Positions 61,836-64,000 of a DNA stretch of 64,000 bases are shown here, in pieces; positions within the stretch are counted from its first letter, which is position 1, and the number at the start of each line of letters is the position of its first letter. Where the stretch lies: positions 100,136-164,135 of the forward strand of contig DAOUJL010000039.1 of NCBI GenBank assembly GCA_034422735.1. The letters run 5' to 3'. The stretch is from Dehalococcoidia bacterium (GTDB taxonomy: Bacteria; Chloroflexota; Dehalococcoidia; Lucifugimonadales; CATOSD01). The notes beneath the pieces are model-generated. The model was not told the origin of the DNA, ran no database searches, and saw only the letters and a program-made list of their open reading frames with translations. The translations under genes were made by a program, and so were the position numbers.

Positions 61836-62484
61836 ATGGGGGGATAGTATTCGCGTCCTGAGCGGCCAGCGCGTCGCCGTATACATAGACGGCTTTAACC
61901 TCTTCTATGGGCTGAGAGACAAGCGCTGGCGGCGCTACTACTGGCTCGACGTGTACAAACTCGCGCAGAATCTGCTCCGCCCGCGTCAGACGCTCACTGC
62001 CGCCAGGTACTTCACCGCCCGCGTCTACCCCGACGCCGGCGACCCCGGAAAGGCCGCCCGTCAGAACGCCTACCTGGAAGCGCTGGGAACCATCCCCGGC
62101 CTGAGCATCCACTACGGTCACTTCCTGCCCAGGACCCGGCGCTGCCCCAACTGCGGCGAGCTAACGCAGTCCTACGAAGAAAAGATGACCGACGTCAACA
62201 TCGCCGTCGAAATGGTCCGGGACGCGCACGACAACCTGTTCGACGCCGCCATAGTGGTCTCCGCCGACAGCGACCTCTCGCGCCCCATCACCGCCATCAG
62301 AGAGCGGTTCCCCGAAAAGCGCGCAATCGTCGACTTCCCGCCCAGCCGCTTCTCAAGCCACCTCAGGCAAATAGCAGGCGCGGCGTTCTTCATACGACGC
62401 GATACATTGAGAGACAGCCAGTTGCCCGAACACATTACAAAACAGGATGGAATCGTCCTCTCGCGCCCCTCATCATGGGATTAG
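61836..62484 (+). CDS. NYN (LabA/DUF88-like, PIN-related) domain protein, N-terminus disrupted at a G6 run or using a non-canonical start
   Basis: The frame is open from 61810 and encodes ...RVLSGQRVAVYIDGFNLFYGLRDKRWRRYYWLDV..., which includes the essential first Asp motif, but it has no ATG/GTG/TTG before GTG 61951. An ATG at 61836 is 1 nt out of frame across the run atgggggga. Removing one G gives MGDSIRVLSGQRVAVYIDGFNL.... Confidence 0.6.
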
Positions 62485-62651
62485 AGGATTCCTGAAAAAA
62501 CGAGACGCCCCCATATCTCTATAGGGACGTCGGCCCAGCGATACTCTCACTGGGGGGGTACATACACTATAATGCGCCCCCTATCGCGCTGTCAACACAT
62601 CGTCGCCGCAATTTCGCGCTTGGCGTGGCGAAAGTCAGGACTGCTGGCAGT

Positions 62652-62680
62652 TTGTCATGGTCATTGCCAAAGGCCATAAT
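62652..62680 (+). promoter_or_regulatory. sigma70-like promoter candidate for the AbrB-like/DUF262 operon
   Basis: TTGTCA (62652-62657), a 17-nt spacer, then CATAAT (62675-62680), about 43 nt upstream of ATG 62723. Confidence 0.45.
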
Positions 62681-62722
62681 GTAAGTCCAACGGCCACTCC
62701 TCAAGGAAACGGAGCGTTTTCA

Positions 62723-62980
62723 ATGTTCGAATCCACCATAGCCGTGAAGGGCCAGACCACGCTGCCCAAAGACGTCAGGGACTCGCTGGCGGTGAAGGCA
62801 GGGGACAGGGTCCGCTATGTCATTCTGGACGAGGGAGTGCTGTTACTGCCCGTGCGGTCCACCAGCCGGCGGTTCGGTAGCCTCAAGTACGACGGCCCGC
62901 CCGTTAGCCTGGAAGATATGGACCGTGCCATCGCAGAGGGGTCAATCTTGGTAGAGAATCCCGGAGGCAATTCGTCATGA
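62723..62980 (+). CDS. AbrB/MazE/SpoVT-family antitoxin-like DNA-binding protein
   Basis: ATG 62723 (the track ORF starts at 62657). MFESTIAVKGQTTLPKDVRDSLAVKAGDRVRYVILDEGVLLLP is a swapped-hairpin barrel motif. 85 aa. The stop overlaps the next start (ATGA). Confidence 0.75.
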   Translation: MFESTIAVKGQTTLPKDVRDSLAVKAGDRVRYVILDEGVLLLPVRSTSRRFGSLKYDGPPVSLEDMDRAIAEGSILVENPGGNSS

Positions 62981-64000
62981 AGGACTCACAGAAGCCCGAC
63001 CACGTGAGCCTCGCCAACATGGTTGGTCGTCTGCGTGAAGGACGATACGTGATCCCCGATTTCCAGCGTGCCTTTGAATGGGAGCCGGGGGACATCAGGG
63101 ATCTAATGAGTTCCATCTTCCGCGACTACTACATCGGTAGCCTTCTTCTTTGGAAGGGCAAAGACGAGAACTTTGAGGTGCTTTCCTGTGAGCCGATCTA
63201 TGGCTATGAGGGAGGTGACGGCCGAAACGACATCGTCTTGGACGGTCAGCAACGTCTCGCGGCCATGTATTACGCTTTCATGGCACCCGACAAGCCCGCA
63301 CCTAACCGCCGTAATCGATACCTCTATTTCATCAAGGTCGACCGCTTCATAGACGAGACTTACGATGAGGCCTTTGCATACGACTGGACTAGCAAGGGGC
63401 TGAATCTGCTGAGTGATCGGACACGCCAGTTCGAGGAGCACATGTTCCCGCTCTCGATCGTTGGAGCAGAGGGCTGGGAACTCCCCAACTGGGTACAGGA
63501 TTATGAGGAGCACTGGCGTGAAGCGGCGGAGACACTTGAAGGATCTGAGGCCGAATCTGCCGCGTTCCATGCGGAAAACGCCAAGAAGTTTGGCGAGCAC
63601 CTGAGAGATATCACCCAGCAGTACCAGATATCGTATATCGAACTGGACCGGGATCTCGAACTCGACAAGATTTGCGATATCTTCACACAGATTAACAGCC
63701 GGGGCGTTAGACTCGACATCTTCGACCTCCTCAACGCCCTCTTAAGGCCGAAGGAGATTCGACTCAGGCAGGAACTGTGGAGAGACGCATCTCCTCGTCT
63801 GGAGTTTGCCGAAGCGGGGCGGATGAACGTGTACGTGCTTCAGGTGATGTCCATACTTCGCCAGGCGTACTGTTCCCCAAAGTATCTGTATAACCTTGTA
63901 CCTGGAAGCCAAAGGCAGGTACGGGGACCGGACGGCAAACTACGGACAGAGGTGCTTGTTTCAGACCCTGTCGAATTCAAGAATCTTTGGCATGAGGCGG
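62977..64000 (+). CDS. DUF262 (ParB-like/GmrS-like) domain protein, partial (runs off window)
   Basis: ATG 62977 has a GGAGG RBS. MKDSQKPDHVSLANMVGRLREGRYVIPDFQRAFEWEPGDIRDLMSSIF...IVLDGQQRLAAMYYAF...FTQINSRGVRLDIFDLLNA carries the DUF262 signatures xPxFQRxxxW and DGQQR. The frame is open through 64000. It is missing from the ORF track because no stop lies in the window. Confidence 0.85.
   Translation, partial: MKDSQKPDHVSLANMVGRLREGRYVIPDFQRAFEWEPGDIRDLMSSIFRDYYIGSLLLWKGKDENFEVLSCEPIYGYEGGDGRNDIVLDGQQRLAAMYYAFMAPDKPAPNRRNRYLYFIKVDRFIDETYDEAFAYDWTSKGLNLLSDRTRQFEEHMFPLSIVGAEGWELPNWVQDYEEHWREAAETLEGSEAESAAFHAENAKKFGEHLRDITQQYQISYIELDRDLELDKICDIFTQINSRGVRLDIFDLLNALLRPKEIRLRQELWRDASPRLEFAEAGRMNVYVLQVMSILRQAYCSPKYLYNLVPGSQRQVRGPDGKLRTEVLVSDPVEFKNLWHEA

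What the first reader, a model, noticed from the sequence alone, without database searches (positions are those of the whole stretch)
62652..64000. AbrB/MazE-like antitoxin-type gene translationally coupled (ATGA) to a DUF262 GmrS-like nuclease-family gene: possible toxin-antitoxin-like or regulated type IV restriction module
A strong promoter candidate (TTGTCA-17-CATAAT) precedes an 85-aa SpoVT/AbrB-fold protein of the VapB/MazE antitoxin type. Its stop overlaps the ATG of a large DUF262 protein (IPDFQRAFEW, DGQQRL, INSRGVRLDIFDL) that continues beyond the window.

DUF262 is the NTPase/ParB-like half of GmrSD-type modification-dependent restriction enzymes and also appears in BrxU-type proteins. 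I am not aware of a described architecture in which it is paired with an AbrB-family partner in a TA-like arrangement.

Together with the adjacent NYN gene and the visibly lower GC from ~61800 onward, this looks like the edge of a defence island. The C-terminal part of the DUF262 protein (DUF1524/HNH or otherwise) and any downstream genes cannot be seen.
Basis: partly seen in the sequence, partly recalled or inferred. Interest (0 to 1): 0.65.

Follow-up and report, generated by a model that had tools for sequence, protein, structure and literature searches.

The report
Orphan antitoxin beside a restriction gene
The small antitoxin-type gene overlapping a large DUF262 restriction-enzyme gene is what remains of an ordinary VapBC toxin-antitoxin pair whose toxin gene was deleted, so the two genes are not a new kind of partnership.

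Summary
An 85-aa AbrB/MazE-type gene (62723-62980) overlaps by ATGA a DUF262 (GmrSD_N) gene (62977 onward), behind a TTGTCA-17-CATAAT promoter-like site.

The pairing is secondary. In the closest relatives (Dehalococcoidia/Chloroflexota genomes and metagenome contigs) the order is AbrB(77 aa)-PIN/VapC(138 aa)-DUF262, with ATGA overlaps at both junctions. In the window about 413 bp, the whole vapC gene, is missing. The breakpoints fall in a ~9-bp repeat, GG(G/A)GCAATC. The last 12 residues of the window's AbrB protein (SILVENPGGNSS) are the C-terminal tail of VapC. The ATGA overlap and the GGAGG ribosome-binding site come from the old vapC-DUF262 junction.

This VapC family has an AbrB partner upstream in about 70 of 80 metagenome loci and never has DUF262 downstream. 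The DUF262 family lacks AbrB in about 70 of 80 genomes and usually sits inside type I R-M operons.

The full DUF262 protein, read from an identical longer contig, is 595 aa. It has the DGQQR motif and a DHHIVP...N...N beta-beta-alpha motif, and its model matches BrxU. It is most likely a GmrSD/BrxU-like type IV restriction enzyme.

Verdict: an ordinary defence gene plus an orphan antitoxin. Interest is low to moderate.

The parts
62652..62680 (+). Sigma-70-like promoter candidate TTGTCA-17-CATAAT of the (former) vapBC-DUF262 operon. A short CATTGC-like direct repeat about 12 bp apart overlaps the -35 and could be the VapB operator (inference only).
   Evidence: 10/12 match. Both hexamers are conserved in position in L003, L015 and L008 (alignment A4).
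62723..62941 (+). VapB-derived part of the AbrB/MazE-type antitoxin gene (codons 1-73): the AbrB DNA-binding swapped hairpin plus most of the C-terminal toxin-binding region.
   Evidence: PF04014 E 9.7e-8 and TIGR01439 E 9.4e-8. About 91% identical to the 77-aa VapB of L163 and L165 (the L003 VapB sequence is). dN/dS 0.08-0.14 against relatives.
62938..62947 (+). Deletion junction. It lies in a microhomology, GG(G/A)GCAATC, found at the 3' end of vapB and again at the 3' end of vapC in relatives. The ~413 bp between the two copies, the whole vapC gene, are missing here.
   Evidence: DNA alignment A4. tblastn of VapC residues 108-138 hits window 62885-62977. The window's AbrB protein matches L163 and L165 twice: residues 1-75 on vapB and 63-85 on the vapC 3' end.
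62942..62980 (+). Remnant of the vapC 3' end, now read as the last 12 codons (SILVENPGGNSS) and the stop of the AbrB ORF. It carries the GGAGG Shine-Dalgarno (62963-62967) and the ATGA overlap for the DUF262 gene.
   Evidence: The L003 VapC ends ...MQGAILVENPGGKSS. Free-standing VapC homologues end ...G(A/T)xLV(E/D)..., and free-standing VapB homologues end ...AIAEGATEG.
62977..64000 (+). N-terminal 341 codons of a 595-aa GmrSD/BrxU-like protein: a DUF262 ParB-like NTPase domain (IPDFQRAFEW at 63052-63081, DGQQRL at 63241-63258) and the start of the helical linker. The gene continues to window-equivalent 64764.
   Evidence: PF03235 E 7.9e-32. PADLOC PDC-M55C E 4e-24 and HEC-05 E 2e-23 for the full-length protein. 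Full ORF at L001:10255-12042; L001 is 100% identical to window 62400-64000. AF2 model and Foldseek match to BrxU 7p9m_A, E 3.7e-8.
61836..62484 (+). Neighbouring NYN-domain gene, a homologue of the PADLOC candidate HEC-09. It is apparently frameshifted in a 6-G run just after its ATG. It is part of the mini-island but not of the operon.

Best explanation
The locus is a degenerate vapB-vapC-gmrSD-like operon.

In an ancestor within Chloroflexota, a canonical type II toxin-antitoxin pair (AbrB-fold VapB antitoxin plus PIN-domain VapC RNase toxin) lay directly upstream of a GmrSD/BrxU-family gene and overlapped it. In the window's lineage a ~413-bp deletion between two copies of a ~9-bp repeat removed vapC exactly. 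This fused the 3' tail of vapC in frame to vapB. The ATGA overlap and ribosome-binding site that used to link vapC to the DUF262 gene were left in place. These steps are shown by sequence comparison.

The DUF262 protein (595 aa) is most likely a type IV restriction endonuclease that depends on DNA modification and on NTP hydrolysis. It has a ParB-like NTPase domain with DGQQR, a helical linker and a C-terminal His-Me-finger nuclease (DHHIVP...N513...N522). This is inferred from homology, the motifs and the fold.

The orphan VapB::VapC' protein no longer has a toxin to neutralise. At most it still represses its own promoter, which probably also drives the restriction gene (inferred, untested).
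For: (1) Eight relatives carry AbrB(77 aa)-PIN(138-139 aa)-DUF262 with ATGA overlaps at both junctions, except L021, which has a 74-nt gap between AbrB and PIN. They are L003, L004, L008, L015, L021 and L005 (there vapB is split by a DDE transposase), plus L163 and L165, which hold the closest DUF262 relatives at 89% identity. The PIN protein matches PF01850 at E 8.4e-15, and four acidic residues (D5, E42, D99, D118) are invariant.

(2) Alignment A4 shows the window sequence switching from the vapB 3' end to the vapC 3' end within GG(G/A)GCAATC. The window's AbrB tail, SILVENPGGNSS, matches the VapC tail AILVENPGGKSS.

(3) Polarity: free-standing VapC homologues also end ...GxxLV(E/D), and free-standing VapB homologues end ...AEGATEG. 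The tail therefore comes from VapC, and the event was a deletion, not an insertion in the relatives.

(4) In 80 metagenome loci with VapC homologues, an AbrB homologue lies upstream in about 70 and DUF262 lies downstream in none.

(5) In 80 genome loci of the DUF262 family (60-87% identity, many phyla including archaea), the gene upstream is HsdM with an ATGA overlap in about 18. Elsewhere it is HsdS, HsdR, an SNF2 helicase or another methyltransferase. AbrB occurs only in the Chloroflexota subset.

(6) vapC was lost independently elsewhere: deleted in L019/L018 relative to L021 and decayed to remnants in L006 and L007.

(7) The DUF262 gene is intact and under purifying selection. It keeps all family-invariant residues and has dN/dS 0.09-0.15. 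The AF2 model (pLDDT 74.7) has a beta-beta-alpha element at residues 488-526. The only significant PDB fold match is BrxU, E 3.7e-8, probability 1.0. A profile search also hits BrxU 7p9k, E 1.6e-13.

(8) Two independent assemblies (an ENA scaffold and a Logan contig) carry the identical AbrB-DUF262 junction.
Against: No experiment exists for any member of this DUF262 subfamily. The C-terminal domain is not recognised by Pfam DUF1524 even at E <= 10. The BrxU fold match has a low global TM-score (0.34-0.36), as expected for a flexible multi-domain model but not proof of the nuclease fold. The vapC-DUF262 overlap is conserved across lineages whose proteins are only 61-68% identical, which hints that the three genes could work together (see rival 1). 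Pairwise dN/dS cannot show whether the orphan vapB is still under constraint since the deletion, and its values (0.08-0.14) are somewhat above those between intact pairs (0.04-0.05). Only the best 80 of 461 DUF262-family loci were inspected.
Confidence: 0.85

Rival explanations
1. VapBC plus the GmrSD-like enzyme form a genuine three-component defence unit in Chloroflexota. The TA module might stabilise, gate or back up the restriction enzyme, and the PIN RNase might stand in for the C-terminal HEPN-like tail that this clade has lost. On this reading the window holds a derived two-gene version in which VapB is kept as the dedicated transcriptional regulator of the restriction gene.
For: The ATGA overlap between vapC and DUF262 is conserved in 8 loci from two DUF262 clades that are about 68% identical, with VapC 61% identical, which is comparable divergence. 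After vapC loss, vapB and its promoter were kept at least twice (the window and L019). The short-form clade lacks the ~145-aa RNxIRH tail found in most family members, while L021 has both vapBC and the tail. That order of events is compatible with acquisition followed by replacement.
Against: Short-form members without any vapBC exist (L009-L012, L164). vapC has been lost or disrupted repeatedly, which is typical of selfish TA decay rather than of an essential subunit. VapC homologues up to 79% identical stand alone, with heterogeneous neighbours. About 70 of the 80 DUF262-family genome loci have no AbrB or VapC gene upstream.
Confidence: 0.12
2. AbrB-DUF262 is a toxin-antitoxin-like pair: the AbrB protein directly neutralises a toxic DUF262 nuclease.
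For: The gene order, the overlap and the antitoxin fold resemble a type II TA operon.
Against: The overlap and the last 12 codons are inherited from vapC. This AbrB family pairs with PIN toxins in about 70 of 80 loci. The DUF262 family normally has no AbrB partner. No PADLOC model matches the AbrB protein.
Confidence: 0.03
3. The vapC-less junction is an assembly or binning artefact, for example a collapsed repeat.
For: The deletion lies between short repeats, and only metagenome assemblies are available.
Against: The ENA scaffold (99,953 bp) and an independent Logan contig (3,308 bp) both carry the AbrB gene overlapping the DUF262 gene; the ENA scaffold was aligned and is identical to the window over 62400-64000. 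The repeat is only ~9 bp, far below read length. The junction keeps the reading frame. Read-level checking was not possible.
Confidence: 0.02

Closest known systems
BrxU (PDB 7P9K/7P9M), a GmrSD-family type IV restriction enzyme; PADLOC HEC-05
   Same: An N-terminal DUF262 domain with the (I/L)PxxQRxFxW and DGQQR motifs and the conserved Ser in helix 2. A long helical linker. A C-terminal beta-beta-alpha element with D-H-(H)-I-x-P (BrxU has DHIYP). About the same length (595 against 587 aa). It is the only significant sequence and fold match in the PDB. BrxU motifs are as quoted in bioRxiv 10.1101/2024.01.29.577857.
   Different: Sequence similarity is limited to the DUF262 domain, and Foldseek identity is 18%. 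The C-terminal domain is not detected by the Pfam DUF1524 model. The genomic context is different: not BREX-associated here.
GmrSD / RloF-type DUF262-DUF1524 proteins embedded in type I R-M operons (Machnicka et al. 2015, PMC4619093)
   Same: Most members of the window's DUF262 family sit directly downstream of HsdM, or next to HsdS or HsdR. That is the context described for GmrSD homologues.
   Different: The window copy and its clade are not inside an R-M operon. They sit behind a vapBC module or its remnant.
ParB(DUF262)+HNH+Swt1-like HEPN fusion proteins (Anantharaman et al. 2013, PMC3710099, Table 1, e.g. VNG7073)
   Same: The majority (~742-aa) form of this family has an extra C-terminal ~145 aa with a conserved A(E/D)LRNxIRHSR motif of the Rx4H type. 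This fits the architecture listed in that paper.
   Different: The window protein and its clade lack this tail, and no remnant lies downstream. Pfam support for HEPN in the long forms is only sub-threshold: HEPN_Swt1 E 0.08.
Type II VapBC toxin-antitoxin modules with an AbrB-type VapB
   Same: The AbrB protein is an orthologue of the VapB of AbrB-PIN pairs, with the typical promoter-antitoxin-toxin layout and overlapping genes.
   Different: The toxin gene is absent from the window; only its last 12 codons survive, fused to vapB. This is an orphan antitoxin. Orphan antitoxins as a class appear in the titles and term counts of papers found (e.g. PMC7354431); those papers were not read.

Membership tests
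GmrSD / BrxU family (type IV restriction enzymes) | N-terminal DUF262 (ParB/Srx-like) domain with a DGQQR NTP-hydrolysis motif | tested here: met
   PF03235 E 7.9e-32. DGQQRL at residues 89-94, invariant in 24 homologues.
GmrSD / BrxU family (type IV restriction enzymes) | C-terminal DUF1524 His-Me-finger (HNH-type) nuclease domain | tested here: inconclusive
   The Pfam DUF1524 model is not matched even at E <= 10. Against that, D489, D490, H491, H492, I493, P495, N513 and N522 are invariant in 18 homologues. The AF2 model has a beta-beta-alpha element at 488-526. The full-length Foldseek match to BrxU has probability 1.0.
GmrSD / BrxU family (type IV restriction enzymes) | Alpha-helical linker of about 200-400 residues between the two domains | tested here: met
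   The AF2 secondary structure is almost all helix between about residues 260 and 480. The linker criterion is from PMC4619093.
GmrSD / BrxU family (type IV restriction enzymes) | Cleavage of modified (e.g. hmC or glc-hmC) DNA, stimulated by NTP; protection against phage | not testable with these tools
   Needs biochemistry and phage assays.
Type II toxin-antitoxin module (VapBC) | AbrB/MazE-fold antitoxin gene first in the operon | tested here: met
   PF04014 and TIGR01439 hits. Orthologous to the VapB of intact pairs.
Type II toxin-antitoxin module (VapBC) | Cognate PIN-domain toxin gene immediately downstream | tested here: not met
   There is no PIN ORF in the window. Only residues 108-138 of VapC match, at 62885-62977. 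The gene is present in relatives.
   Direct adjacency occurs only in the window/L002 and in L019, both of which are vapC-deletion derivatives. About 70 of 80 DUF262-family loci have no AbrB, and none of 80 VapC-family loci has DUF262.
PADLOC HEC-09 (NYN-domain candidate defence gene), neighbouring gene | Full-length match to the HEC-09 profile, with an intact ORF | tested here: inconclusive
   The profile match is full length, E 4e-84. But the conserved N-terminus has no in-frame canonical start, and an ATG followed by a 6-G run is out of frame by one base. HEC-09 gave no protection against the phages tested in the source paper.

The most novel reading that the evidence does not exclude
The vapB-vapC-DUF262 operon of sponge- and marine-associated Chloroflexota might be a functional composite defence system. 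In it a VapBC module would control or back up a GmrSD-like restriction enzyme, with the PIN RNase taking over the role of the HEPN-like RNase tail this clade has lost. Repeated retention of vapB after vapC loss would then mean that the orphan antitoxin has been domesticated as the regulator of the restriction gene.
Probability: 0.12. Interest if true: 0.5.

Novelty: new member of a known kind. Interest (0 to 1): 0.27.

Why it matters
The result removes an apparent new architecture, 'antitoxin plus DUF262 nuclease'. It also shows how such look-alike gene pairs can arise: a deletion between short repeats takes out the toxin gene of a TA module and welds the antitoxin to whatever lay downstream.

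It documents a widespread and highly conserved DUF262-HNH(-HEPN-like) family (60-87% identity across bacterial phyla and archaea) that is usually embedded in type I R-M operons. In one Chloroflexota lineage this family is instead co-operonic with vapBC. The repeated decay of vapC in that lineage (four or more events) is a clear natural example of TA degeneration next to a defence gene.

For annotation, the 85-aa protein should be labelled an orphan VapB::VapC' chimera, not the partner of the DUF262 protein.

Tried and rejected
(1) Pfam DUF1524 or HNH models on the C-terminal 254 aa: no hit at E <= 10. The nuclease assignment therefore rests on motif conservation, the AF2 secondary structure and the BrxU fold match.

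(2) NCBIfam: nothing for the DUF262 or NYN proteins.

It was rerun with P0001, which is 99% identical.

(4) Rfam on the whole mini-island at E <= 1: no RNA family.

(5) A repeat search for att-like or target-site duplications flanking the island: only short chance-level repeats.

(6) A search for a remnant of the long-form C-terminal tail downstream of the short-form genes: none.

(8) HEPN assignment of the long-form tail: only sub-threshold Pfam hits, so it is kept as tentative.

(9) dN/dS of the orphan vapB: it indicates overall purifying selection, but it cannot isolate the period since the deletion.

(10) Literature searches (DUF262 + antitoxin; GmrSD + VapC; orphan antitoxin + VapB): nothing among the listed hits pointed to a vapBC-GmrSD operon, and the four papers that were read do not describe one.
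Full report
**1. The observation**

- A sigma-70-like site, TTGTCA-17-CATAAT, lies at 62652-62680 with 10 of 12 consensus matches.
- An 85-codon ORF runs from 62723 to 62980. Its product matches the AbrB/MazE antitoxin models: PF04014 E 9.7e-8, TIGR01439 E 9.4e-8, and PrlF-type below its cutoff.
- Its TGA stop overlaps the ATG (62977) of a long ORF that is open to the end of the window.
- The first 341 residues of that ORF match PF03235 (GmrSD_N / DUF262) at E 7.9e-32 and contain IPDFQRAFEW, DGQQRL and INSRGVRLDIFDL.
- The upstream gene is an NYN-domain gene.
- GC falls from 0.64-0.70 to 0.52-0.58. The fall begins near 62250 rather than 61800.

**2. Extending the contig**

The exact AbrB protein is encoded on a 99,953-bp ENA metagenome scaffold (L001) and on an independent Logan contig (L002).
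- L001 is 100% identical to the window over 62400-64000.
- There the DUF262 ORF is complete: 595 aa at L001:10255-12042, equivalent to window 62977-64764.
- Housekeeping genes follow it: TenA, then F420 ligase and PPDK. An Ldh_2-family dehydrogenase precedes the NYN gene.
- The 'island' is therefore only NYN + AbrB + DUF262, about 3 kb. The low-GC block covers AbrB + DUF262.

**3. What the AbrB gene is**

A scan of one genome per species found 461 relatives of the DUF262 protein, and the best 80 were fetched.
- An AbrB homologue is upstream in only eight of them, all Chloroflexota.
- In six of those eight, a 138-139-aa gene lies between AbrB and DUF262, with an ATGA overlap onto DUF262. In the five Dehalococcoidia loci the AbrB-PIN junction overlaps in the same way; in L021 a 74-nt gap separates AbrB and PIN.
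- The middle protein is a PIN domain (PF01850, E 8.4e-15) with four invariant acidic residues, that is, a VapC toxin.
- The two closest known relatives of the window's DUF262 protein (P0002 and P0003, 89% identity) show the same AbrB(77)-PIN(138)-DUF262 order on their contigs.

Aligning the window with these loci shows where vapC went.
- The window follows vapB up to ...GCAGAGGGG, then continues with the last ~40 bp of vapC...CAATCTTGGTAGAGAATCCCGGAGGCAATTCGTCATGAAGG.
- The switch lies in GG(G/A)GCAATC, a sequence present at both the vapB 3' end and the vapC 3' end in relatives. This is the signature of a deletion between short direct repeats, about 413 bp long.
- The window's AbrB protein therefore ends in SILVENPGGNSS, while the L003 VapC ends in AILVENPGGKSS.
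- The window's AbrB protein matches L163 and L165 twice, once on vapB and once on the vapC 3' end.

The direction of the event is clear. Free-standing VapC homologues from unrelated contigs also end ...G-x-x-LV(E/D), and free-standing VapB homologues end ...AIAEGATEG. The tail is therefore VapC sequence.

**4. Is AbrB-DUF262, or vapBC-DUF262, a conserved unit?**

From the toxin side, I fetched 80 metagenome loci encoding VapC homologues at 35-79% identity.
- About 70 have the AbrB homologue directly upstream. Most of the rest are cut by a contig end.
- None has a DUF262 homologue.
- Downstream genes differ in size, distance and strand.
- This VapBC family is therefore an ordinary free-standing TA module.

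From the DUF262 side, the commonest upstream gene is the type I R-M methyltransferase HsdM.
- It is the upstream gene in about 18 of 80 loci, mostly with an ATGA overlap.
- Other loci have HsdS, HsdR, SNF2 helicases or other methyltransferases upstream.
- This matches the published context of GmrSD/RloF homologues (PMC4619093).

A neighbour-joining tree places the vapBC-bearing loci on both sides of the window's clade, so vapBC was ancestral there. It has decayed repeatedly:
- a clean deletion in the window;
- an independent deletion with different breakpoints in L019 and L018, relative to their sister L021;
- PIN remnants in L006 and L007, with an XRE/HTH_37 gene inserted in L006;
- a DDE transposase inside vapB in L005.

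Direct AbrB-DUF262 adjacency exists only in these deletion derivatives.

**5. What the DUF262 protein is**

Most family members are about 742 aa. The window's clade is 595-632 aa.
- It lacks a ~145-aa C-terminal tail that carries a conserved A(E/D)LRNxIRHSR motif of the Rx4H type.
- The tail is probably a Swt1-like HEPN domain. Pfam support is only sub-threshold (E 0.08). A ParB(DUF262)+HNH+HEPN architecture is listed in PMC3710099.
- No remnant of the tail lies downstream of the short forms.

The 595-aa protein keeps every residue that is invariant across 24 homologues. These include DGQQR, S46 and the block D489-D490-H491-H492-I493-x-P495 ... N513 ... N522. Compare DHIYP in BrxU and EHICP in HEC-06, both shown by mutation to be needed for defence (bioRxiv 10.1101/2024.01.29.577857).

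Structure and selection agree with this.
- An AlphaFold2 model (pLDDT 74.7, pTM 0.58) has a helical linker and a beta-beta-alpha element at 488-526.
- The only significant PDB fold match is BrxU: 7p9m_A, E 3.7e-8, probability 1.0, TM 0.34-0.36.
- Sequence and profile searches also find only BrxU, over the DUF262 domain.
- The best PADLOC matches are PDC-M55C, HEC-05 (= BrxU) and HEC-06.
- Pfam's DUF1524 model does not match, so that membership criterion is inconclusive at the profile level.
- dN/dS against relatives is 0.09-0.15.

I conclude that the protein is an intact GmrSD/BrxU-like enzyme. Most likely it is an NTP-dependent nuclease that acts on modified DNA. This is inferred from homology, not shown.

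**6. How the locus probably works now**

The vapB promoter probably transcribes the chimeric vapB and the DUF262 gene as one mRNA. The evidence is the conserved -35 and -10 hexamers, the 4-bp overlap, a dedicated GGAGG, and no terminator-like site on the + strand between the AbrB start and the end of the DUF262 gene.

The orphan VapB keeps its AbrB DNA-binding domain and 73 of its 77 native residues, so it may still repress this promoter. Without VapC as co-repressor, repression might be weaker. That last point comes from general knowledge of type II TA autoregulation and was not tested. Its dN/dS against relatives is low (0.08-0.14) but slightly above that between intact pairs (0.04-0.05). 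The comparison cannot isolate the time since the deletion.

**7. Rivals**

- A true three-component VapBC/GmrSD-like system is not excluded. The vapC-DUF262 overlap persists between lineages whose proteins are 61-68% identical, and vapB was kept twice after vapC loss. Against it stand the repeated decay of vapC, the short-form genes without vapBC (L009-L012, L164), and the near relatives of this vapBC that stand alone.
- A direct AbrB-DUF262 TA pair is contradicted by the comparative data.
- An assembly artefact is unlikely: the ENA scaffold is base-identical to the window across the junction, and the separately assembled Logan contig carries the same overlapping AbrB-DUF262 gene pair.

**8. 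Novelty and verdict**

- The DUF262 gene is a new member of a known kind.
- The AbrB gene is an orphan antitoxin of a known TA family.
- The vapBC-GmrSD-like operon in Chloroflexota did not turn up in the literature I could search. TA genes next to defence genes are, however, common in defence islands.
- Interest is low to moderate. The main value is the clear reconstruction of how the look-alike pair arose.

Noticed in passing
window 61836-61951 (NYN gene 5' end): The conserved N-terminus of the NYN/HEC-09-like protein (RVAVYIDGFNLFYG, carrying the first catalytic Asp) lies upstream of the first canonical in-frame start, GTG at 61951. An ATG at 61836 is followed by a run of six G and is one base out of frame. 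With five G it would read MGDSIRVLSGQRVAVYIDGF... in frame. Both assemblies have six G. The gene therefore looks frameshifted in a homopolymer, or it uses a non-canonical start, or both assemblies share an error.
   Followed up: partly
window 62495-62595, minus strand: Between the NYN stop and the vapB promoter there is a near-consensus promoter on the minus strand (TTGACA-18-TATAGT, 11 of 12). It is followed by two hairpins and a U-run (12-bp stem, then UCGUUUUUUC). The fold energy is -33.4 kcal/mol, z = -3.9. There is no Rfam match, and the sequence occurs only in L001 and L002 among 162 loci. It could be a ~65-nt small RNA or a terminator serving the NYN gene.
   Followed up: partly
L013, L014, L017-L082 (DUF262 homologues of about 742 aa), e.g. 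L025:7780-8229: Most members of this DUF262 family carry an extra C-terminal ~145 aa with a conserved A(E/D)LRNxIRHSR motif (Rx4H), probably a Swt1-like HEPN RNase domain. The window's clade has lost it without trace. Pfam support is only sub-threshold.
   Followed up: partly
L025, L039, L053, L057, L065, L074, L078, L082 and others (genome loci): The DUF262 family is 60-87% identical across Chloroflexota, Acidobacteriota, Gemmatimonadota, Planctomycetota, Proteobacteria, Cyanobacteria and methanogenic archaea. It usually overlaps the stop codon of a type I R-M hsdM gene (ATGA). This points to frequent horizontal transfer as an R-M-embedded cassette.
   Followed up: partly
L005:3935-5260; L163:5999-7465; L165:1258-2787: DDE transposase genes sit inside or next to the vapBC-DUF262 operon in several relatives. 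In L005 one splits vapB while vapC still looks intact. In L163 and L165 the DUF262 ORFs are shortened to 505 and 453 aa. The whole cassette is decaying in several lineages.
   Followed up: no
L006:5467-5805: In one relative an XRE/HTH_37-type gene of 112 aa, which looks like a HigA-type antitoxin, sits where vapB would be, followed by a short VapC remnant. This may be a replacement of one antitoxin-type regulator by another upstream of the same DUF262 gene.
   Followed up: no
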